From a phage, in sequence record NC_105618.1: a DNA stretch of 50,465 nucleotides; one strand, 5' to 3'. Below the pieces are notes generated by a model, which saw only the letters and a list, made by a program, of their open reading frames with translations, made no database searches and had not been told where the DNA came from. The position numbers and the translations under genes were made by a program. The stretch's first letter is position 1. The number at the start of each line of letters is the position of its first letter. Shown here in pieces: positions 1 through 42,501 of the stretch.

Positions 1-525
1 ATGAGTGAACCTAAGAACGCCCCCGTAGTCCAGGGAGGTAATTTCAAAGAGCTATACAAGAAAAAGTTCGGCACTGTTCTTGCTAAAAACCGGGCAATGA
101 CGCCTGAGCAACTATTCGATCTATCAGTTAAGTATTTCGAATGGGCTGAGGACAACGCAATCAAGGCGTCAGAATCAGCCAGCTTTCAGGGTGGCGTTTA
201 TGAATCGCTTGTTCATAAGCCGCGCGTCTTCACCTGGACCGGATACCGACTATTTATCGGTGCAAGCGAGGCTGCAATCATTAAGTGGAAGCGTGAGGAA
301 GAATACAGTGAGGTTATGGAGTTCGTGGAATCCGTAATCAACGAGCAAAAATTTCAGCTTGCCGCAAACGGCGTTATTAACGCCTCATTTATCGGCAAGG
401 ATCTCGGAATCGACAAGCCAGCCTCAATCAACATCGAAAACTCGGCAGCTTCAGCGTCGACCGCCGTCGCCACTACTGAGGACGCAATGAAAGAGGCTGT
501 AAACAGCATTCTTGATATGCTTTAA
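1..525 (+). CDS. putative terminase small subunit
   Basis: ORF directly upstream of terminase large subunit; RBS AGAGGA is formed across the window end/start junction; no diagnostic motif recognised. Confidence 0.45.
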   Translation: MSEPKNAPVVQGGNFKELYKKKFGTVLAKNRAMTPEQLFDLSVKYFEWAEDNAIKASESASFQGGVYESLVHKPRVFTWTGYRLFIGASEAAIIKWKREEEYSEVMEFVESVINEQKFQLAANGVINASFIGKDLGIDKPASINIENSAASASTAVATTEDAMKEAVNSILDML

Positions 526-531
526 CGTTAG

Positions 532-547
532 GGGCGCGCGAGCGCCC
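532..547 (+). other. GC-rich hairpin between first two genes
   Basis: GGGCGC-GCGA-GCGCCC stem-loop without T-run. Confidence 0.4.
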
Positions 548-549
548 AC

Positions 550-2133
550 ATGGGAGACTTAATCATGATTCAATGGGAAGATCTTAACGCAACGCAGAAG
601 TTAGCGATCAAGAAAATGAGCGAGGCTAATTTCGAAAAAATGATTCGGATCTGGTTCCAGCTTATGCAGGCGCAGCAGTTCCAGCCTAACTGGCATCACC
701 TTTACCTATGTCACGAAGTGGAGGAAATTATTGCAGGGAGACGAGGGAATACAATCTTTAACGTCACGCCAGGTTCCGGTAAAACTGAAGTGTTCTCAAT
801 TCACCTTCCGGTGTACGCAATGCTCAAGTGTAAAAAGGTGCGAAACCTTAACGTGTCGTTTGCTGACAGCCTGGTTAAGCGCAACAGTAAGCGCGTCCGT
901 GAGATTATCAGCAGCAACGAATTTCAAGAGCTATGGCCTTGCAAGTTCGGTACATCGAAAGATGAGGAGATGCAGGTTCTTAACGAAGATGGAAAGGTTT
1001 GGTTTGAGTTGATATCCGCAGCGGCTGGCGGTCGCATTACGGGTTCGCGTGGTGGCTACATGACGCCGGGATTCTCGGGTATGGTAATGCTCGACGATAT
1101 CGACAAGCCTGATGATATGTTCTCAAAGGTTAAGCGTGAGCGTACGCACATGCTATTGAAAAACACCATTCGATCCCGTCGTATGCATAACGAGACGCCT
1201 ATTATTGCAATTCAGCAACGACTACATGCCCAGGATTCAACATGGTTCATGATGAATGGCGGCATGGGTATTGAGTTTGATCAGATCTCAATTCCTGCAC
1301 TGGTGACGGAAGAATACGGAAAGACACTTCCTGATTGGTTGCAGCCTTACTTTGCTCGTGATGTTTTATCGTCTGAGTATGTAGAATTGGATGGCGTTAA
1401 GCATTACTCTTTTTGGCCCAGCAAGGAAAGTGTGCACGACCTGCTAGCTTTACGAGAAGCAGATCAGTATACCTTTGATTCCCAGTATCAGCAGAAGCCG
1501 ATCGCGCTGGGTGGCTCCGTGTTTAACTCAGAGTGGTGGACTTATTACGGCAGCAGCCTTGACGCTGACGAGCCAGATCCGGGTAAATATGATTACCGAT
1601 TCATCACTGCCGATACCGCTCAGAAGACAGGTGAGCTAAACGACTACACGGTATTTTGTTTGTGGGGCAAGAAGAATGATAAGGTTTACTTTATCGACGG
1701 CATTCGCGGTAAGTGGGAAGCGCCGGATATGGAGAAACAATTTACCGCCTTCGTGAATCAGGCATGGAGACACAATAAATCAATGGGCGTGCTTCGTAAA
1801 ATCTACGTGGAAGACAAAGCAAGCGGTACGGGCTTAATCCAGAATCTCAGGAAAAAGACTCCGATCTCTATCACTCCATTGCAGCGTAACAAGGATAAAG
1901 TTACCCGAGCGATGGATGCCCAGCCAGTTATTAAAGCCGGGCGCGTGGTTCTGCCAGAAGAGCACCCCATGCTTGCGGAAATTATCGCGGAACACAGCGC
2001 ATTCACTTACGATGACACTCACCCGCATGATGATATCGTCGATAACTTCATGGATGCGGCGAATATCGAATTACTGACAATTGACGATCCTATCGAGCGA
2101 ATGAAGCGACTCGCCGGGATGGTTAAGCGGTAA
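550..2133 (+). CDS. terminase large subunit
   Basis: Walker A-like VTPGSGKTE, Walker B-like MVMLDDIDK, acidic C-terminal nuclease-like region; start may be ATG 565 (GGGAGA RBS). Confidence 0.85.
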   Translation: MGDLIMIQWEDLNATQKLAIKKMSEANFEKMIRIWFQLMQAQQFQPNWHHLYLCHEVEEIIAGRRGNTIFNVTPGSGKTEVFSIHLPVYAMLKCKKVRNLNVSFADSLVKRNSKRVREIISSNEFQELWPCKFGTSKDEEMQVLNEDGKVWFELISAAAGGRITGSRGGYMTPGFSGMVMLDDIDKPDDMFSKVKRERTHMLLKNTIRSRRMHNETPIIAIQQRLHAQDSTWFMMNGGMGIEFDQISIPALVTEEYGKTLPDWLQPYFARDVLSSEYVELDGVKHYSFWPSKESVHDLLALREADQYTFDSQYQQKPIALGGSVFNSEWWTYYGSSLDADEPDPGKYDYRFITADTAQKTGELNDYTVFCLWGKKNDKVYFIDGIRGKWEAPDMEKQFTAFVNQAWRHNKSMGVLRKIYVEDKASGTGLIQNLRKKTPISITPLQRNKDKVTRAMDAQPVIKAGRVVLPEEHPMLAEIIAEHSAFTYDDTHPHDDIVDNFMDAANIELLTIDDPIERMKRLAGMVKR

Positions 2134-2187
2134 TAAATGAGATATAATCAGGGCTGTCAATTGACGGCCCTTTTTATTGGAGGAAAC

Positions 2188-3471
2188 ATGAAAATTGTTA
2201 AACATGATGGATATAACGATATTTTTAACGGCGGTGCAGATGGATCGCCTAAGCCATTCTTTATGTCTGATGCATCATATCACGTCGGTTCTTTCTACAA
2301 CGACAACGCAACCGCGAAGCGAATTGTGGATGTTATCCCGGAAGAGATGGTGACGGCTGGTTTTAAAATGTCAGGCGTTAAGGATGAAAAAGAGTTCAAG
2401 TCTTTATGGGATAGCTACAAACTTGATTCAAGTCTGGTTGATCTTCTTTGTTGGGCACGACTTTACGGTGGCGCGGCGATGGTGGCAATCATCAAAGACA
2501 ACCGGATGTTAACCAGTCAGGCAAAGCCTGGAGCTAAACTTGAGGGCGTCCGAGTTTACGATCGATTTGCTATCACTGTTGAAAAGCGAGTCACCAATGC
2601 AAGATCCCCTCGCTATGGTGAGCCTGAAATCTACAAGGTATCCCCTGGCGACAATATGCAGCCGTATCTGATTCATCACTCAAGAGTCTTTATTGCTGAT
2701 GGTGAACGAGTAACGCAACAGGCAAGAAAACAGAATCAAGGATGGGGAGCGTCGGTATTGAACAAGTCACTGATTGATGCAATCTGTGACTATGATTACT
2801 GTGAATCTCTGGCTACTCAGATCTTGCGACGTAAGCAACAGGCTGTATGGAAGGTCAAAGGTCTTGCCGAAATGTGTGATGATGATGATGCTCAGTATGC
2901 CGCGCGCCTGCGACTTGCTCAGGTTGATGATAACTCCGGCGTAGGCCGTGCGATCGGTATCGATGCTGAGACTGAGGAATATGACGTTCTCAACTCTGAT
3001 ATCAGCGGAGTTCCTGAGTTCTTATCAAGCAAGATGGACCGCATAGTCTCCCTGTCAGGGATTCATGAGATTATCATCAAGAATAAGAACGTAGGTGGCG
3101 TATCAGCGAGCCAAAACACAGCGCTTGAGACTTTCTATAAGCTAGTCGATCGCAAGCGAGAGGAAGATTACAGGCCGCTTCTTGAGTTCTTGTTGCCGTT
3201 CATTGTTGATGAGGAAGAGTGGTCGATCGAGTTTGAGCCTTTATCTGTTCCGAGTAAGAAAGAGGAATCAGAGATCACGAAGAATAACGTTGAGTCAGTC
3301 ACGAAGGCTATCACTGAGCAAATCATCGATCTGGAAGAAGCTCGCGACACGTTGCGATCTATTGCCCCTGAGTTCAAACTCAAGGATGGAAATAACATCA
3401 ACATTCGCGAACCTGAAGAAACAACCGAGCCGGAGCCGGGGTTAGGGGAGAAGTTAGAAGATGAAAATTAA
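2188..3471 (+). CDS. portal protein
   Basis: size and position after terminase; GGAGG RBS before in-frame ATG 2188 (track ORF begins 2137); acidic C-terminal tail. Confidence 0.75.
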   Translation: MKIVKHDGYNDIFNGGADGSPKPFFMSDASYHVGSFYNDNATAKRIVDVIPEEMVTAGFKMSGVKDEKEFKSLWDSYKLDSSLVDLLCWARLYGGAAMVAIIKDNRMLTSQAKPGAKLEGVRVYDRFAITVEKRVTNARSPRYGEPEIYKVSPGDNMQPYLIHHSRVFIADGERVTQQARKQNQGWGASVLNKSLIDAICDYDYCESLATQILRRKQQAVWKVKGLAEMCDDDDAQYAARLRLAQVDDNSGVGRAIGIDAETEEYDVLNSDISGVPEFLSSKMDRIVSLSGIHEIIIKNKNVGGVSASQNTALETFYKLVDRKREEDYRPLLEFLLPFIVDEEEWSIEFEPLSVPSKKEESEITKNNVESVTKAITEQIIDLEEARDTLRSIAPEFKLKDGNNINIREPEETTEPEPGLGEKLEDEN

Positions 3472-6674: not shown

Positions 6675-6689
6675 TAACAAAAAGTGCTA
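6675..6689. promoter_or_regulatory. palindromic motif (operator-like) before major capsid gene
   Basis: TAACA-AAAAG-TGCTA. Confidence 0.4.
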
Positions 6690-10438: not shown

Positions 10439-10453
10439 TAACAAAAAGTGCTA
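10439..10453. promoter_or_regulatory. palindromic motif abutting RBS of tail chaperone gene
   Basis: TAACA-AAAAG-TGCTA directly followed by ttaACCAATCAGGAGA and ATG 10476. Confidence 0.4.
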
Positions 10454-21324: not shown

Positions 21325-21851
21325 TTGTATGCCCTCGTCGTTAGTGTGTTTGAATTGTATGTCGCATTTACTTTTATTGCAATAGTTCGATTACAATTTT
21401 TTTCGCGTAACAGGTGTCTATTTTTGTAACTGGAAGTGGTGTTACAAAATCGACCTCATTCGACCGCAGGTAGATATGATAAAAACTCTATATAATATAT
21501 ATAGATAGATAATATTTAATTTTAGCTTTATATATATAATTATTGCTGTGTAACAGTTGTCTATCATGTAACAGGTGATTTGATTGATTCGTCAAATTTC
21601 TATCATATATGTTCAAAATTTAATCAATCTTGGTTCTATTCATGGATATCTGTGTATTTATAAGAAAAAGCGGTTACAAGTGTTACACAATATACACCAC
21701 ATAAAATCAAGGTTAATCTATTGATTCCATTGATGCTGGTTGTAACTTGAGCGATATAGACACACGATTACACACCAATTACATGTATTCGATTGACTAA
21801 ACGCTGTTAATGGCTATAATGGATTCATCGTAAACGAAGGAGATAAACGAA
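21325..21851. promoter_or_regulatory. AT-rich divergent control region with repeats
   Basis: 527 bp without ORFs; repeats GTAACAG(G/T)TGTCTAT and TCTATATAATATATATAG; contains sigma70-like promoter TTGACT-16-TATAAT. Confidence 0.6.
21793..21820 (+). promoter_or_regulatory. sigma70-like promoter for recombination operon
   Basis: TTGACT, 16 nt spacer, TATAAT, about 30 nt upstream of RBS of 21852 gene. Confidence 0.55.
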
Positions 21852-22916
21852 ATGTTCCAGGTATTCACATCAAACCAGCTTTCTAATGACGAGTATCATA
21901 GCAATGAAGGTTGGGCGGCAGAGTATGTAAGCGGATCGAGCCTTGCAGAAATTTATCAGACCTGCCCGGCTAACTGGCGATTCAAGAAGAACGAGACAAC
22001 GAAAGCGCTGGAGTTCGGTACTCAGTCTCATACCAACTTCGAGAGTCGCGATCTGTTTACTGCAACTTATGCTCGTTGTCCGGCTCCGTCAGAGTTTAAA
22101 GATCTCATTACTTCGCAAGCTGCACTGGCGGCAAAATTAAAATCCTTTGGCCTGAAAGGTACATCCGGTAAGCAGTACCCTGACCTCATCAAAATGATGG
22201 TTGATTGTGGTGAAGAACTCAATGTCCAATACCTGATTGAACTGATCGCAGAGGCTGAGGCGCGCGCTGAAGGAAAGCAACTCGTTGACGCTGATAAATA
22301 CGACGCCTGCATGAAGATGAGAGCCATACTTGAGCAAAATCCTGATCACGAGGCGTGCATCAACAGCGAAACGGCGCAGCGTGAGATCTCAATCTTTGGT
22401 GAGATATCCGGCGTCAAGGTTAAGGTTAGACTTGACCATCTGGACTACAAAGAGAATGTTCCAGGTCGCGTGCTGACTGGTTATGATGAGAATGGCGATC
22501 CGGTATTCGAAGACGTCATTTTCCCTGAAGCGCTGATTATCACTGACTTCAAAACCACGATGAGCGCCAACCCGCTAGAGTTCCCGAGACTGGCATACAA
22601 TCACGGGTATTATCTTAAAATGGCCTTGCAGCATGACTTATTGCGGCGTGCAATTCAGGCTGGAGCATTTGAAGGAAACTTCCCGGAAGATATCCCGATC
22701 GTAGTTCGATTGCTGGCACAGGAGAAAAAGGAGCCTTACATTGCCCTTGCTTATCGCATGACTATGGAGCAAATCAGAATCGGTCGCAATCAGTATATTA
22801 GCGTGGTACACACTTATAAGGCTTGCTCTGAGATGGACGTTTGGCCTGGATATGCTGGCGACGCAAGCGAGATCGAACTCGAAACGCCGTCATGGGTACG
22901 ATATCAAAACAAGTAA
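21852..22916 (+). CDS. putative recombination exonuclease (PD-(D/E)XK, RecE/YqaJ-like)
   Basis: VRLDHLD ... IITDFKT motifs consistent with D...(D/E)XK nuclease core; adjacent to ERF and SSB. Confidence 0.55.
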   Translation: MFQVFTSNQLSNDEYHSNEGWAAEYVSGSSLAEIYQTCPANWRFKKNETTKALEFGTQSHTNFESRDLFTATYARCPAPSEFKDLITSQAALAAKLKSFGLKGTSGKQYPDLIKMMVDCGEELNVQYLIELIAEAEARAEGKQLVDADKYDACMKMRAILEQNPDHEACINSETAQREISIFGEISGVKVKVRLDHLDYKENVPGRVLTGYDENGDPVFEDVIFPEALIITDFKTTMSANPLEFPRLAYNHGYYLKMALQHDLLRRAIQAGAFEGNFPEDIPIVVRLLAQEKKEPYIALAYRMTMEQIRIGRNQYISVVHTYKACSEMDVWPGYAGDASEIELETPSWVRYQNK

Positions 22917-27360: not shown

Positions 27361-27813
27361 TTAACTAAAAATGCTATTTGTCGTTCCAATATCTTCCTTC
27401 TTCACGACCCGCATAAACTTCTTGTTTTTGCAGCGCTTCTCAAGGCACTTTCCGTTCCCATCAAACTTCAGATCGAATCGCAGCCATGCGGCCCGAAATC
27501 CTTTGCAACCCTGTCGGCGATAAGCACGATGCGCCGCTTCAGCGCCTTGCCAGGAAATCATATTTCGATCCTTCCAACCTTGAACCGTCTGGTTGCTAAC
27601 TTTCAGAGCCTTTGCACAAGCCGCCGGACCACCATAATATTCAATAAGAGCATCCAATCGCGCCCTCAGTCCTGCGCGCGTTTCTTCTTTATGGATATAA
27701 AATCCGCAGCGCTGGCGGGGCTTTTTGTCTTTACCGCGTCGTGTTCCGTTGTTACCATTGATGTGACGTTTATCGATTTCACCAGTAGACTCTGCGATAC
27801 GTTTCATATTCAT
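27361..27813 (-). CDS. putative HTH DNA-binding regulator
   Basis: KALKVSNQTVQGWKDR helix-turn-helix-like segment; in-frame ATG 27813 preceded by AGGAGA; palindromic motif lies in its 5' leader. Confidence 0.45.
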   Translation of the reverse strand: MNMKRIAESTGEIDKRHINGNNGTRRGKDKKPRQRCGFYIHKEETRAGLRARLDALIEYYGGPAACAKALKVSNQTVQGWKDRNMISWQGAEAAHRAYRRQGCKGFRAAWLRFDLKFDGNGKCLEKRCKNKKFMRVVKKEDIGTTNSIFS

Positions 27814-27827
27814 CTTAATTCTCCTGT

Positions 27828-27870
27828 AGCACTTTTTGCTAAAAACGTTTACTGTATGCCGTGTATTATA
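27828..27870 (+). promoter_or_regulatory. palindromic-motif promoter module (helicase operon)
   Basis: TAGCA-N5-TGCTA, 22 nt, TATTAT; overlaps RBS/start of divergent HTH gene. Confidence 0.5.
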
Positions 27871-27894
27871 TCGTAAACGATACAACGATTCAAA
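27866..27894 (-). promoter_or_regulatory. sigma70-like promoter of HTH regulator gene
   Basis: minus-strand TTGAAT, 17 nt spacer, TATAAT; approximate coordinates. Confidence 0.45.
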
Positions 27895-40124: not shown

Positions 40125-40167
40125 ATTATGCCAAATCACACCGATCGAGTTTTAACAAAAAGTGCTA
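40125..40167 (-). promoter_or_regulatory. palindromic-motif promoter module
   Basis: minus strand TAGCA-N5-TGTTA, 22 nt, CATAAT; overlaps 3' end of methyltransferase ORF. Confidence 0.45.
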
Positions 40168-40865
40168 TTTGCAATTGCTTTGAAAAATCCACGTGGCGAC
40201 AGCGATCGTATCAACTTCGTTTTGGCAGACTTGCCGCCCAGCTTGTTATGCTGCGCAGAGTACCCGTCAGGCAGGCTTACTGGCTTTCTCTCCGGCATGA
40301 CAAAATCGTCCGAGGTCCAAAGACACGTCTTTTTCGGATAAGCATCGCGCGGCGCAATATACATCGGGAACCAGGGGTGCGAGTCATTCTCAGGAAGGTA
40401 GCCGCCATACTCCCAGGGATTGAATGAGTGATCTGGTTTTCTCCAGGCAGATGACAGAACGCTAACCGGATTCTCAATGATGTAAGTCACGCCCAGGGCA
40501 TCGCCAATATTCGCAGCAATCCGGGCGGTGGCAACAGCCTTCTCCTGGAATAACGGATCACGCTCACGCTTACTTGCAAAGTGCGCAGCGCCACTAACAG
40601 CTAGGTCAGTGCATGGAGGAAAGGCCATGATTAAATCCGGCTTGCCATACACACCAGCGATAGCATCACGTTCGAACTTCTCATCAATGAAGACGTTCAC
40701 ATACTCAATGTTCGGATGCTCTACCCTGGCATTGTACTTTGCATAATCTCCGTGATCTGCCCCGTCAAAGTTGAATCACATCACCTTATGACCTCGCTTT
40801 GCCAGTTCATGACCAGCAAGGCCGGAACCGTCGAATAATGACCAGATTAATTTCACTTGTTGCAT
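40152..40865 (-). pseudogene. DNA cytosine-5 methyltransferase-like gene interrupted by in-frame TGA
   Basis: N-terminal 29 codons (LFDGSGLAG, motif I-like) end at in-frame TGA about 40776-40778; downstream frame continues with AFPPC (motif IV-like) and IIENP (motif VI-like). Confidence 0.5.
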
Positions 40866-40879
40866 TCTCCTGATTAACC

Positions 40880-41014
40880 TTATCGCTTACCCTGACCGTT
40901 GCAGGCTTGGCACGTGATTCTCTGCATTTTCCAGACCCCAGGGACTTCAGTGAATAACGGAACCATGTTAAATCCACGACCAGCACACTGACTACAAACC
41001 TGTTTTACTCTCAT
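40880..41014 (-). CDS. small zinc-ribbon protein
   Basis: 44 aa with CSQC ... CQAC; in-frame ATG 41014 with CCAATCAG-type leader. Confidence 0.35.
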   Translation of the reverse strand: MRVKQVCSQCAGRGFNMVPLFTEVPGVWKMQRITCQACNGQGKR

Positions 41015-41048
41015 TTCTGCTTCCTCTACTGATTGGTTGATGACCAGA

Positions 41049-41092
41049 ACTATACCCTGCCAACATGGATAAGTCGTTAGCAAAAAATGCTA
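41049..41092 (-). promoter_or_regulatory. palindromic-motif promoter module
   Basis: minus strand TAGCA-TTTTT-TGCTA, about 23 nt, TATAGT. Confidence 0.45.
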
Positions 41093-41701
41093 TTCCAATA
41101 ATTGCTCATTATTCCATCAATAGTGGAATAGTTGGAATAATTGCGATCCCGATTGATCTCGAATGATGAAACGTGATTATTGCATGGTGTGCAACAGTTG
41201 GTTGATTTGTTGCTGAGAATGCAATGATTGTGAGAGGGAGGATTTAGTGTTACCCGGTTCGCCTGGTAGTCATCTCCATTTTTAGCAAAAAGTGCTATCG
41301 ATTACACTTTAACTTGTCACGACTGTAATATTTGTCTAGAATCGCCATTGTGACAAAATTACACACTGTGACGCCTCTAAATATACATATAGATATATGT
41401 ATCTATATAATATATATAGTGTTTTTTTTATTTATATATATAGATAATTATATTGTAATAGCTGTGTATAGTTGTCTTACATTGTCTAGCGTACTGTTGG
41501 CATATTTCTATCTGCATGTTTATATATACAGTAATTTTTTGTGAGCTATATATTTCTATAGTGACTCTATACAGCTAGACAAATGTTACACAGCTTAAAA
41601 TTGGCTCGCAGGCGTTGACATATCTGCATTGCGCTGTCACAATGGCAATTGTTGACGCGTTATGACACCATTTACACACGAATAGACAAAGAGGTTATAT
41701 T
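41084..41701. promoter_or_regulatory. AT-rich divergent control region with repeats
   Basis: about 618 bp without ORFs of 60 aa or more; shares TCTATATAATATATATAG and GCTGTGTA..AGTTGTCT blocks with 21325-21851; GGAATA(A/G)TTG repeats. Confidence 0.6.
41283..41297. promoter_or_regulatory. isolated palindromic motif in control region
   Basis: TAGCA-AAAAG-TGCTA with no -10-like hexamer at the usual spacing. Confidence 0.35.
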
Positions 41702-42217
41702 ATGAGCAATACCAATCAGGAATTAAAAATCACCGACATGATTCGACTAACCTGCGACGCAATGTATCGCGACAAAGGCATGAGTGAGTTCTCTTTCGTG
41801 GCTGATGATATGGCCCTGGAAGGCGCGCGATTCTATTTCCGCAATCAGGATGTAAGCGATAGCGATCTTGAGTCTGCCGCTGCCGGATGGGTGGACCAGA
41901 ACCAGGCGGAGGTAGAGAAGCGATTCAAGTCTGCTTTCATCACTCCGATCATCACCCGTCACTTTTGCAAATATGGCAAGGTGGCAAAGGTTAAGGTAGG
42001 CCGAAATGACGCAGCAATCACAATGATAACGGTTATCGTTACAGACGAAGAGGTTCCTGTGAAGAAGCGCCGCAGTCGGAAAAAAGTTAGCCTGGCCGAC
42101 TGCCTGGACTCGTTTGACGTTGATGTTAGTAAGATGGGCGATAGCGAGTTAATGGTTCGCGATGTAAATGAGATCGTGCGCCAGATGAAAGCGCATATCG
42201 AAAAGTGTGGACTGTGA
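41702..42217 (+). CDS. hypothetical protein
   Basis: track ORF, AGAGG RBS. Confidence 0.45.
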   Translation: MSNTNQELKITDMIRLTCDAMYRDKGMSEFSFVADDMALEGARFYFRNQDVSDSDLESAAAGWVDQNQAEVEKRFKSAFITPIITRHFCKYGKVAKVKVGRNDAAITMITVIVTDEEVPVKKRRSRKKVSLADCLDSFDVDVSKMGDSELMVRDVNEIVRQMKAHIEKCGL

Positions 42218-42306: not shown

Positions 42307-42501
42307 ATGGAAACGCAAATTGACGTAGTGGTTGTTCAGCGCGATTCAACTCACGAGAAGGGTCTGTTCAAGAAAGGAACCAAAATCACTATCGACCTTG
42401 AGGATATGGTTGCGTATCACTCGGGTCTTACCTGGAATGTGGTGCGAGTTGGCAGCGACTACAAACTCAAAGGCTTTAACACTTACTTTGCTGAGGCTTA
42501 A
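42307..42501 (+). CDS. hypothetical protein
   Basis: track ORF. Confidence 0.4.
   Translation: METQIDVVVVQRDSTHEKGLFKKGTKITIDLEDMVAYHSGLTWNVVRVGSDYKLKGFNTYFAEA

What the first reader, a model, noticed from the sequence alone, without database searches (positions are those of the whole stretch)
41084..41701. AT-rich divergent control region II, including a 200-bp stretch with no ORF and GGAATA(A/G)TTG repeats
This 618-bp region separates the two early blocks. Besides the shared AT-rich repeats it contains two palindromic motifs, one (41283-41297) with no downstream gene or -10 hexamer. A stretch at 41095-41280 holds inverted GGAATAATTG/CAATTATTCC repeats and only a 17-codon Cys-rich ORF. This could be an origin, a small RNA locus or a regulator binding array.
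Basis: seen in the sequence. Interest (0 to 1): 0.5.

Follow-up and report, generated by a model that had tools for sequence, protein, structure and literature searches.

The report
T1-type phage genome-end control region
This non-coding gap is the "genome end" hub of a T1-like phage, holding the likely DNA-packaging start region, two host-type early promoters around an AT-rich core and two copies of a family-wide promoter motif; it is a known kind of region, but its parts now suggest testable functions.

Summary
The window is a whole T1-like (Tunavirus) genome. The flagged gap, really 41015-41701, is the non-coding junction where the GenBank records of T1 and TLS are opened.

- **Observation:** mostly confirmed. 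The exact inverted 10-mers do not exist; the real unit is a TGGAATA heptamer (2 inverted, then 2 direct).
- **Palindromes:** both belong to the known but unexplained T1/TLS 21-nt repeat. It has 24 copies here, 17 of them with a -10 hexamer exactly 22 nt downstream (also seen in TLS). I read it as an activator site centred near -42.
  - Copy 41078 drives the leftward genes.
  - Copy 41283 is an orphan, fixed 16 bp upstream of a conserved rightward sigma-70 promoter.
- **The 200-bp ORF-free stretch:** conserved and non-coding. The left end of the T1 record maps inside it, so it is best read as the pac region.
- **To its right:** two tandem early promoters flank the AT-richest segment of the genome, which has a second copy at 21.5 kb. 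They carry 8-mers that change with each allele, like operators.

A small RNA has no support. A replication origin is not excluded.

It is a composite of known element types with some new, testable inferences. Interest is moderate.

The parts
41015..41048 (-). 5' leader of the leftward Zn-finger gene (ATG 41014-41012). It contains the family leader box CATCAACCAATCAG (41029-41042) and the SD GAGGAAG (41020-41026).
   Evidence: The same leader box follows other motif copies (39743, 45236, 47112).
41049..41054 (-). -10 hexamer TATAGT of the leftward TAGCA-type promoter.
   Evidence: it lies 23 nt downstream of the motif. The family rule is 22 nt, met in 17 of 24 copies.
41078..41092 (-). TAGCA-N5-TGCTA palindrome, copy 1 (reads TAGCATTTTTTGCTA leftward). 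Putative activator site centred near -42 of the leftward promoter.
   Evidence: Largely conserved in relatives (intact in 11 of 15 aligned sequences; single-base changes in four) and also in TLS.
41091..41139 (.). Dyad array of four heptamers: TATTCCA (41091), TATTCCA (41110), TGGAATA (41124), TGGAATA (41133). Candidate recognition array for TerS, or for a regulator of the leftward promoter.
   Evidence: 4 of 14 genome copies. Conserved, with single-base changes in a few genomes, in 14 Tunavirus sequences and in IME347. TLS has 2x AGACCGATTGGTCT at the same place.
41140..41250 (.). GATT-rich, ORF-free stretch with the palindrome TTGCAtggtgTGCAA (41180-41194) and TTGCTgagaaTGCAA (41210-41224). 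Position 1 of the T1 reference maps to 41179. Proposed pac / first-cut zone.
   Evidence: GATT 5 against 0.76 expected. Other records open at 41166, 41233, 41247 and 41267, and at about 41261 (IME347).
41163..41216 (+). 17-codon Cys-rich ORF. Judged non-coding.
   Evidence: no SD, length not conserved, no third-position bias.
41251..41268 (.). Imperfect hairpin TACCCGG-TTCG-CCTGGTA (perfect in T1). Function unknown.
   Evidence: Not conserved in IME347.
41283..41297 (-). Orphan TAGCA palindrome, copy 2 (a perfect consensus read leftward). No -10 and no gene downstream. It sits exactly 16 bp upstream of the -35 of P_R1, so its centre is near -59.
41314..41342 (+). P_R1, a rightward sigma-70 promoter: TTGTCA, 17 nt, TAGAAT.
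   Evidence: Function-preserving variants occur in every allele: TTGATT/TATGAT, TTGACC/TACAAT, TTGTAA/TACCAT and TTGACT/TACAAT.
41332..41339 (-). Allele-specific 8-mer CTAGACAA, copy 1, overlapping the spacer and -10 of P_R1. The other copies are at 41482-41489 (-), 41575-41582 (+) and 41683-41689 (+, TAGACAA).
   Evidence: all 3 genome copies of the 8-mer lie here; other alleles carry GATTAACA, CGGTTGCA or GTGTACAC at the same positions.
41376..41478 (.). AT-rich core, the AT-richest spot of the genome. 41402-41478 has a homologue at 21487-21562.
   Evidence: Conserved in the W and T alleles.
41515..41533 (.). Conserved box CATGTTTATATATACAGTA, lying between the inward-facing 8-mers.
41615..41643 (+). 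P_R2, a rightward sigma-70 promoter: TTGACA, 17 nt, TGtCACAAT (extended -10).
   Evidence: the -35 and the TGn element are kept in the W and T alleles while the spacer sequence differs.
41702..42217 (+). First rightward gene (171 aa, PHROG 11083). It is the only gene in this neighbourhood that is served by consensus-type sigma-70 promoters rather than by a TAGCA-type promoter. Candidate binder of the allele-specific 8-mers.
27361..27813 (-). 150-aa Cro/YdaS-like HTH protein. Candidate factor that binds the TAGCA palindromes. Motif copy 27827-27841 lies between this gene's own -10 and its SD.
21487..21562 (.). Second copy of the AT-rich element, in the other divergent region (21330-21853).

Best explanation
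The gap is the composite "genome-end" control region of a T1-type phage. It has four juxtaposed parts, listed here from left to right.

1. **41049-41092: a leftward promoter of the phage's own class.**
   - It has no -35 element. A TAGCA-N5-TGCTA palindrome is centred near -42 and a TATAGT -10 lies 22-23 nt downstream.
   - I infer that a phage-encoded dimeric Cro-like HTH protein (27361-27813) binds the palindrome and recruits host sigma-70 RNA polymerase, as class II activators do.

2. **41091-41280: a conserved, non-coding packaging-initiation (pac) region.**
   - It holds a dyad array of four TGGAATA heptamers, GATT repeats and TTGCA palindromes.
   - I infer that the P22-gp3-like small terminase assembles here, that the first headful cut is made here, and that packaging then runs rightward.

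3. **41283-41297: an orphan copy of the palindrome.**
   - It is held exactly 16 bp upstream of the -35 of P_R1.
   - I infer that it lets the same regulator modulate the early promoter.

4. **41314-41660: two tandem rightward host-type early promoters.**
   - P_R1 and P_R2 bracket the AT-rich core and fire on unmodified host polymerase straight after injection.
   - They express the first gene (41702).
   - Allele-specific 8-mers (CTAGACAA here) sit over P_R1, inside the core flank and upstream of P_R2. They act as operators for a protein that changes with the allele, most simply the product of the adjacent gene.

**Shown:** the sequence anatomy, its conservation, the statistics and the mapping of record ends.
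**Inferred:** every protein-DNA assignment, the timing and the cut site.
For: **Motif family**
- 11 exact and 24 near-consensus copies.
- TAnnnT lies at exactly 22 nt in 17 of 24 copies (P about 4e-24).
- This is replicated in TLS, a different subfamily: 15 of 19 at 22 nt, counting (T/C)AnnnT.
- No -35-like hexamer sits at the proper distance (sequences).

**Candidate regulator**
- It carries a sub-threshold P22_Cro/YdaS HTH match.
- It is annotated as a transcriptional regulator.
- tblastn finds it in 824 records. All 40 listed are 44-52 kb T1-like phages or a fragment of one; 20 records are named Campylobacter phages.
- A motif copy lies between the gene's -10 and its SD in Tunavirus, Rogunavirus and Webervirus.

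**pac region**
- NC_005833 annotates repeat_region 1..2800, and its position 1 aligns to window 41179.
- TLS is opened in the homologous gap, at the pac site its authors derived from restriction mapping (PMC11447400).
- The SU57 paper places a read-coverage break and the T1 pac in this UTR (PMC7718038).
- Other records open at about 41166, 41233, 41247, 41261 and 41267.
- The stretch is 93% conserved with no coding signature.
- TerS is GP3_package.

**Promoters**
- P_R1 and P_R2 keep their -35, 17-nt spacer and -10 across the W, T, A and IME347 alleles while the sequence changes.
- The 16-bp spacing between the orphan and the -35 is invariant.

**Operators**
- All 3 genome copies of CTAGACAA are here.
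- Other alleles carry a different 8-mer at the same positions and in the same orientations.
- The alleles track the allele of the first gene.
Against: - No transcript, footprint or end-mapping data exist for this phage.
- The T1 and TLS record starts came from restriction-scale mapping plus author choice, so pac is located only to within roughly 100-300 bp.
- pac would lie 9.4 kb from terS, which is unusual for P22-like terminases.
- The heptamer array abuts the leftward promoter and could be its upstream operator instead.
- The motif is asymmetric: 9 copies have C13>T and none has G3>A. A variable hairpin brackets the -10 and folds better on the sense strand. A plain dimer-on-duplex model does not explain either fact.
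- The orphan's centre at -59 is about 2.5 bp out of phase with classical class I positions.
- Region I shows no allele switching.
Confidence: 0.55

Rival explanations
1. The AT-rich core is a replication origin. The AT core would be the unwinding element, the flanking allele-specific 8-mers would be iterons for an initiator (the product of the adjacent gene), and transcription from P_R1 would open it, as at the T7 primary origin or lambda ori. The copy at 21.5 kb would be a second origin. This reading is compatible with the promoter and pac readings of the flanks.
For: - These are the AT-richest segments of the genome.
- The 8-mers are repeated, in tandem in the T allele, and face inward around a conserved box.
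- A conserved promoter fires into the core.
- DnaA-box-like words with one mismatch: 5 found against 1.3 expected.
- No origin is known for T1-like phages.
Against: - There is no perfect DnaA box and no IHF or Fis consensus site.
- The primase and helicase genes lie elsewhere in the genome, while the 8-mers switch allele among closely related phages.
- The region I copy has no allele-specific words.
- The GC-skew turn at about 41.1 kb coincides with the switch in transcription direction, so it is uninformative.
Confidence: 0.2
2. The ORF-free stretch, including the heptamer array, is not pac. It would be an upstream operator or enhancer region for the leftward promoter at 41049-41092, and the record starts that fall inside it would be annotators' conventions.
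For: - The array overlaps the motif by 2 bp and spans about -49 to -97 of the leftward promoter.
- TLS has a different dyad array at the same position relative to its own leftward promoter.
- Many records were simply oriented on T1.
Against: - Five different opening points fall within about 100 bp, in records from different laboratories.
- TLS pac was mapped experimentally to this gap.
- SU57 shows a coverage break in the same UTR.
- The stretch is conserved whichever leftward gene follows it.
Confidence: 0.2
3. The TAGCA palindromes act at the RNA level or as transcription blocks rather than as activator sites. In this reading a small UAGCA/UGCUA hairpin plus the second, variable hairpin would form an intercistronic processing, stability or (anti)termination element, or a "stoperator". 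The orphan at 41283 would then mark or stop leftward read-through.
For: - The frequent C13>T variant keeps a G-U pair only on the sense strand.
- The second hairpin folds better on the sense strand (p=0.001 here, p=0.04 in TLS) and 30 of 225 pairs are G-U.
- The TLS authors raised stoperators as a possibility.
- The orphan is followed by a tetraloop hairpin.
Against: - The TAnnnT pattern at a fixed 22 nt is the signature of a sigma-70 -10 element, not of an RNA loop.
- The 5' arm of the hairpin would lie upstream of the predicted start site.
- No U-tract follows the hairpins.
- The motif sits in the leader of a conserved HTH gene.
Confidence: 0.2
4. The 41095-41280 stretch encodes a small RNA or a Cys-rich micropeptide.
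For: - High conservation without a long ORF.
- A stable predicted fold, -38.5 kcal/mol for the consensus structure.
- A 17-codon ORF is present.
Against: - No Rfam hit.
- No promoter or terminator inside the stretch.
- No compensatory pairs.
- The ORF has no SD, varies in length (12 codons in T1) and shows no codon-position bias.
Confidence: 0.05

Closest known systems
The 21-nt intergenic direct repeat of TLS, T1, Rtp and Rogue1 (aaATAGCACnnnTTGnTAAAA; PMC11447400)
   Same: Both palindromes match its consensus. The family here is intergenic, oriented with transcription, and shows the same A/T/G spacer subtypes.
   Different: The paper leaves the function open (stoperator, enhancer or UP-like). 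Here the repeat is shown to sit a fixed 22 nt upstream of a -10 hexamer, with a hairpin bracketing the -10, in both this phage and TLS. The 41283 copy is atypical, with no -10 and no gene.
Class II activator-dependent promoters: Mu C protein at the Mu late promoters, CRP/FNR class II, lambda cI at PRM (from my own knowledge)
   Same: A dyad site centred near -42 replaces the -35 element, the -10 is good, and a small dimeric HTH protein is the candidate activator.
   Different: Binding and activation are untested. The half-sites are unequally conserved. A variable inverted repeat around the -10 has no counterpart in those systems.
pac regions of headful phages: P22 pac with gp3, SPP1 pacL/pacC/pacR, P1 pac hexamer arrays (from my own knowledge)
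   Same: A non-coding cluster of short phased or dyad repeats lies next to the left end of the first headful. TerS belongs to the P22 gp3 Pfam family.
   Different: It lies 9.4 kb from terS rather than inside or next to it. The P22 pac sequence is absent; only GATT-rich words are shared. The cut sites are not mapped.
Transcription-activated or iteron origins: the T7 primary origin, lambda ori (from my own knowledge)
   Same: A promoter fires into an AT-rich tract, and short repeated words flank it.
   Different: No initiator has been identified, there is no replication evidence, and the repeats change allele without any change in the replication genes.
Early-promoter clusters at the leading end of virulent phage genomes: T7 A1-A3, the T5 pre-early region (from my own knowledge)
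   Same: Strong host-type promoters lie within a few hundred bp of the genome end and drive small early genes. The second rightward gene matches Pfam Gp54, named a phage antiviral trigger protein.
   Different: Here there are only two promoters. They are separated by about 300 bp of AT-rich DNA and come as exchangeable alleles.

Membership tests
T1/TLS 21-nt intergenic repeat | Match to the consensus ATAGCACnnnTTGnTAAAA | tested here: met
   41283 copy (read leftward): cgATAGCACTTTTTGCTAAAAA, 14 of 14 specified positions. 41078 copy: TAGCATTTTTTGCTAAC, 12 of 14.
T1/TLS 21-nt intergenic repeat | Lies upstream of a start codon in the direction of transcription, about 76 nt in TLS | tested here: met
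   This row covers the 41078 copy only. The motif lies 64-78 nt upstream of ATG 41014, with a -10, a leader and an SD in between.
T1/TLS 21-nt intergenic repeat | A downstream gene exists for the 41283 copy | tested here: not met
   There is no -10 at 22 nt and no ORF of 20 or more codons with an SD in 41095-41280 on the minus strand. This is an orphan member by sequence only.
Class II activator-dependent sigma-70 promoter | Activator site centred near -41.5, no -35 element, a usable -10 | tested here: met
   The geometry follows from the fixed 22-nt spacing. 17 of 24 copies have TAnnnT at 22 nt and 15 of 19 TLS copies have (T/C)AnnnT there. The bases at -35..-30 are AAAACN-like.
Class II activator-dependent sigma-70 promoter | A cognate dimeric activator binds the site and is required for transcription | not testable with these tools
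   There is only a candidate: the 150-aa Cro-like HTH protein, with a motif copy in its own leader in three genera.
Sigma-70 consensus promoter (P_R1, P_R2) | -35 and -10 hexamers with a 17-nt spacer | tested here: met
   P_R1 is TTGTCA/17/TAGAAT (10 of 12). P_R2 is TTGACA/17/CACAAT with TGn (10 of 12). Single matches are at shuffle level in this AT-rich DNA (6 found, 4.4 expected), so the weight rests on conservation across alleles.
Sigma-70 consensus promoter (P_R1, P_R2) | A mapped transcription start | not testable with these tools
   No transcript data were found for any Drexlerviridae phage.
pac site of a headful-packaging phage | Coincides with the end of the first headful or the start of the terminal redundancy | tested here: met
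   The evidence is indirect. T1 position 1 (repeat_region 1..2800) maps to 41179. TLS position 1, the authors' pac, lies in the homologous gap. The resolution is about 100-300 bp.
pac site of a headful-packaging phage | Lies in or next to the small terminase gene, as is typical for the P22, Sf6 and SPP1 types | tested here: not met
   terS is at 1-525, which is 9.4 kb downstream.
pac site of a headful-packaging phage | TerS binds the repeats, and cut sites are mapped | not testable with these tools
   Only the repeat anatomy is available.
Iteron/DUE replication origin | An AT-rich unwinding element | tested here: met
   85% AT over 100 bp, the genome maximum.
Iteron/DUE replication origin | Iterons plus a cognate initiator | tested here: inconclusive
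   Repeated allele-specific 8-mers are present. The adjacent protein has no confident fold match.
Iteron/DUE replication origin | DnaA, IHF or Fis sites | tested here: not met
   No perfect DnaA box. No IHF or Fis consensus at zero mismatches.
Small regulatory RNA | Its own promoter and terminator, a known family, or a covarying structure | tested here: not met
   The covariation test has low power because the sequences are 93% identical.

The most novel reading that the evidence does not exclude
The region is a single integrated hub, which would identify three T1 functions that have never been pinned to sequence.

- **Origin.** The AT core, its allele-specific 8-mers and the adjacent PHROG-11083 protein would form the unknown T1 replication origin with a new kind of origin-binding protein, opened by transcription from P_R1.
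- **pac.** The neighbouring heptamer and GATT array would be the pac site.
- **Middle promoters.** The TAGCA palindromes would define a new promoter class. A Cro-like activator at -42 would work together with a sense-strand hairpin that presents the -10 hexamer in its loop.
Probability: 0.12. Interest if true: 0.7.

Novelty: new member of a known kind. Interest (0 to 1): 0.42.

Why it matters
T1 is a classic phage, yet its transcription programme, pac sequence and replication origin have never been defined at the nucleotide level. The 2024 TLS paper explicitly lists the function of the 21-nt repeat as an open question.

This region carries two copies of that repeat. The analysis turns the question into concrete experiments:
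- a fixed "motif, 22 nt, -10" architecture;
- a named candidate activator;
- a 200-bp candidate pac region;
- two candidate immediate-early promoters with exchangeable operator cassettes.

The practical use is for engineering T1-like phages and for choosing where to open and orient their genomes.

Tried and rejected
- **Sigma-54 promoter for TAGCACGAATTGCTA.** Rejected: the conserved G and the GC element are 10 nt apart, not 12, and the first G of the GG is an A (reading of the sequence).
- **Dam-regulated pac, as in P1.** Rejected: the two GATC sites at 41145 and 41155 are GATT in most relatives.
- **P22 pac sequence.** Only a loose AGGATTTAG match exists at 41239-41251, and it varies among relatives.
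- **Micropeptide.** Rejected.
- **Rfam and covariation for an sRNA.** Nothing found.
- **A conserved leftward sigma-70 promoter at 41356-41327.** Present in the W allele only as a 9-of-12 match, and not conserved in IME347 or AV106.
- **GC skew as an origin marker.** Confounded by the switch in transcription direction.
- **Using mosaic proteins to separate function from linkage.** P0048 has a T-type N-terminus and a W-type C-terminus, and its phage has T-type operators. This is uninformative, because the N-terminus is the linked part.
- **Literature.** Roberts 2004 and the Rtp paper are not held, and a search for T1 pac papers returned nothing useful.
- **Allele switching in region I.** Absent.
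Full report
**Identity and setting**

The window is a complete T1-like genome (Tunavirus, Drexlerviridae) opened at terS.
- Megablast finds 65 related phage records.
- Gene order matches the BASEL phage LeonhardEuler.
- The flagged interval lies between a leftward block and a rightward block of small genes.
- The leftward block includes a 44-aa DnaJ-type Zn-finger protein and a Dcm-like methylase.
- The leftward ORF is listed from TTG 41083, but it has a proper SD and ATG at 41014. The real gap is therefore 41015-41701.

**Checking the observation**

Confirmed:
- AT-richness. The AT-richest 100 bp of the genome starts at 41376 (85% AT). The second richest is at 21472, in the other divergent region.
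- Shared AT-rich repeats. 41402-41478 aligns to 21487-21562 with score 50; 200 shuffles gave at most 36.
- The palindromes. TAGCA-N5-TGCTA occurs 11 times exactly against 0.03 expected, including at 41078 and 41283.

Not confirmed as written:
- The claimed inverted 10-mers are not there. GGAATARTTG occurs twice, both on the + strand, and with one mismatch it is at chance level genome-wide.
- What is real is a heptamer array: TATTCCA at 41091 and 41110, then TGGAATA at 41124 and 41133. That is 4 of 14 genome copies. The array is kept, with single-base changes in a few genomes, in 14 Tunavirus sequences and in Badaguanvirus IME347.
- The 17-codon ORF (41163-41216) is real but not coding. It has no SD, T1 stops after 12 codons, and there is no third-position bias. 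Variable sites in the whole stretch fall 20/25/21 by phase (p=0.73), against 27/19/67 (p=2e-8) in the neighbouring gene.

**The palindromes are a known, unexplained repeat**

The TLS paper describes a 21-nt repeat, aaATAGCACnnnTTGnTAAAA.
- It reports 21 copies, says the repeat is also present in T1, Rtp and Rogue1, and lists its function as an open question (PMC11447400).
- In this window I find 24 near-consensus copies.
- A TAnnnT hexamer lies exactly 22 nt downstream in 17 of them. The background frequency is 0.015, giving P about 4e-24.
- One more copy has CATAAT at 22 nt, and two have the hexamer at 23 nt.
- The same rule holds in TLS, a different subfamily: 15 of 19 at 22 nt (counting (T/C)AnnnT) and 2 at 21 nt.
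- With the hexamer at -12..-7, the 15-mer spans -49..-35, so its centre is at -42. Nothing resembles a -35 element at the proper distance.
- The motif is therefore a promoter element placed where class II activators bind. This comparison rests on my own knowledge of Mu C, CRP and FNR.

Two features do not fit a plain dimer-on-duplex picture:
- The left half, TAGCAC, hardly varies, while the right half is TTGTTA in 9 copies.
- In 15 of 20 promoter-type copies a hairpin of variable sequence brackets the -10.
- That hairpin folds better on the sense strand: mean -11.3 against -8.5 kcal/mol (p=0.001), and 30 of 225 pairs are G-U. TLS gives p=0.04.

**A candidate factor for the palindromes**
- A 150-aa protein is encoded between the primase and helicase genes (27361-27813, minus strand).
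- It has a sub-threshold P22_Cro/YdaS HTH match, and several GenBank records annotate it as a transcriptional regulator.
- tblastn finds it in 824 records. All 40 listed are 44-52 kb T1-like phages or a fragment of one; 20 records are named Campylobacter phages.
- Motif copy 27827-27841 lies between this gene's own TATAAT and its SD. The same copy sits at -49..-35 of the divergent helicase promoter.
- The same arrangement occurs in Rogue1 and in a Webervirus.
- This layout suggests autorepression combined with activation. It is an inference, not a test.

**The two copies in the region**
- 41078-41092 reads leftward. It is followed at 23 nt by TATAGT (41054-41049), then the family leader CATCAACCAATCAG, the SD, and ATG 41014. 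It is an ordinary member of the family.
- 41283-41297 also reads leftward and matches the consensus perfectly. It has no -10 and no gene downstream, and is followed instead by a tetraloop hairpin (41251-41268).
- The 41283 copy is nearly invariant: one spacer base varies (A or C) among the relatives, and IME347 carries it unchanged.
- It always lies exactly 16 bp upstream of the -35 of a rightward promoter, although the 16 bp in between differ between alleles. That puts its centre near -59 of that promoter.
- I read it as an operator through which the same factor modulates the early promoter. The phase is not the classical class I phase, so the sign of the effect is open.

**Rightward early promoters**

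| Promoter | Elements in this window | Evidence for function |
|---|---|---|
| P_R1 (41314-41342) | TTGTCA, 17 nt, TAGAAT | Replaced by TTGATT/TATGAT (T1), TTGACC/TACAAT (ADB-2), TTGTAA/TACCAT (AV106), TTGACT/TACAAT (IME347), always with a 17-nt spacer |
| P_R2 (41615-41643) | TTGACA, 17 nt, TGtCACAAT | TTGAC(A/G) and the TGn extended -10 are kept while the spacer changes |

- Single consensus matches in this AT-rich DNA are at shuffle level. The case for these two promoters rests on the function-preserving variation across alleles.
- The gene they serve (41702, PHROG 11083) is the only one in this neighbourhood served by consensus-type sigma-70 promoters rather than by a TAGCA-type promoter.
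- The only leftward promoter I can recognise is the TAGCA-type module, so the "divergent" region is asymmetric.

**Exchangeable cassettes and allele-specific words**
- The blocks 41300-41378 and 41460-41700 exist as at least three alleles, around a conserved AT core.
- Within each allele one 8-mer recurs at homologous positions and in the same orientations:

| Allele | 8-mer | Positions relative to the end of the orphan motif |
|---|---|---|
| W (this window) | CTAGACAA | 34-, 185-, 278+, 386+ |
| T1 type | GATTAACA | 26-, 197-, 280+, 289+, 297+ |
| AV106 | CGGTTGCA | 179-, 283+, 292+ |
| IME347 | GTGTACAC | 188, 300 |

- All three genome copies of CTAGACAA lie in this region.
- Concerted change at several sites points to a sequence-specific protein that differs between alleles.
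- The only neighbouring gene that tracks the alleles is the first gene. It is 52% identical between W and T, and 24% between W and AV106.
- Its family is tiny, with 11 clusters in 1.8 billion representatives.
- A mosaic protein did not separate function from linkage.
- Region I does not switch alleles.

**The ORF-free stretch as the pac region**
- RefSeq T1 carries repeat_region 1..2800, and its first base aligns to window 41179.
- TLS is opened in the homologous gap, at the pac site its authors placed by submolar-fragment mapping.
- TLS shows the same order of elements: a leftward motif copy, a dyad array (2x AGACCGATTGGTCT), GATT-rich DNA around position 1, an AT core, and a TTGACG/17/TAATAT promoter.
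- The SU57 paper reports a coverage break in this UTR and states that the T1 pac lies there.
- Other records open at 41166, 41233, 41247 and 41267, and at about 41261.
- The stretch is 93% conserved whichever leftward gene follows it.
- GATT is enriched: 5 found against 0.76 expected.
- TerS is P22-gp3-like.
- Weak points: the resolution is only about 100-300 bp, the site is 9.4 kb from terS, and the heptamer array might instead regulate the adjacent leftward promoter.

**Rival readings**
- Small RNA: no Rfam hit, no internal promoter or terminator, and no compensatory pairs.
- Origin: the AT core, the iteron-like words and a promoter firing into the core are suggestive, and no origin is known for the family. 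However, there are no perfect host-factor sites, no identified initiator, and no allele change in the replication genes.

**Verdict**

This is a real, conserved, composite control region of known element types. It is the T1-family genome-end UTR with pac, early promoters and copies of the family repeat. The new points are inferences that can be tested directly:
- the promoter architecture of the repeat;
- its candidate activator;
- the coupling of the orphan copy to P_R1;
- the operator cassettes.

Noticed in passing
window 40776-40778 (gene 40152-40856, minus strand): The Dcm-like C5-methyltransferase gene carries an in-frame TGA where relatives have TGC (Cys). There is no frameshift. It may be a pseudogene, a sequencing error, or a restart at GTG 40700.
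   Followed up: partly
about 20 sites genome-wide, e.g. 42240, 45236, 48609 (+) and 37486, 38005 (-): Motif-linked promoters have an inverted repeat of variable sequence that brackets the -10 hexamer. The 5' arm is at about -27..-19 and the 3' arm at about -8..+1. It folds better on the sense strand, has many G-U pairs, and is also present in TLS. Its purpose is unknown.
   Followed up: partly
window 27361-27871: The Cro-like HTH gene has back-to-back overlapping -10 hexamers with the helicase promoter, and a TAGCA motif between its own -10 and its SD. The arrangement is conserved in Rogue1 and in a Webervirus.
   Followed up: partly
window 21330-21853: The second divergent region carries a copy of the AT-rich element, many TGTAAC/GTTACA words, and a near-consensus promoter (TTGACT/16/TATAAT, 21793-21820) ahead of the exonuclease VIII gene. 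It is 90-93% conserved in all tunaviruses, with no allele switching.
   Followed up: partly
L019 (Shigella phage vB_SsoS_008), aligned to window 41660-41700: The leader of its first gene contains a T-allele leader fragment (…GTTAATCATGGTGTATATTGAAACTAAGGAG…) followed by a W-allele leader. Its P_R1 -35 is deleted. It looks like a recombinant between cassettes.
   Followed up: no
window 41702-42217 and proteins P0044-P0049: PHROG-11083 proteins are mosaics. The last 35 or so residues (…DVDVSKLGDSELMVRDVNEIVRQ against …PDVDDLEKGDVTVSTVRDLVRQ) are exchanged between N-terminal alleles. A conserved basic patch, KKRRSRKK, sits in a low-confidence loop of the model.
   Followed up: partly
window 42307-42501: The second rightward gene matches Pfam PF25180, "phage antiviral trigger protein Gp54" (E=9e-36).
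   Followed up: no
window 40880-41014 (minus strand): A 44-aa protein made of two CxxCxGxG DnaJ-type zinc-finger repeats is the first leftward gene here. Relatives have other genes in this slot.
   Followed up: no
L003/L002 (T1 record ends), aligned to window 41166-41214: T1-type sequences have a perfect 14-bp direct repeat, GATGTGATTGTTGC, 31 bp apart. The T1 record boundary falls inside the first copy.
   Followed up: no
window 6675-6689 and 10439-10453: Two motif copies lie in the late (structural) region and read against the direction of the late genes. The one at 10446 has a TACGAT at 22 nt, so it may be an antisense promoter.
   Followed up: no
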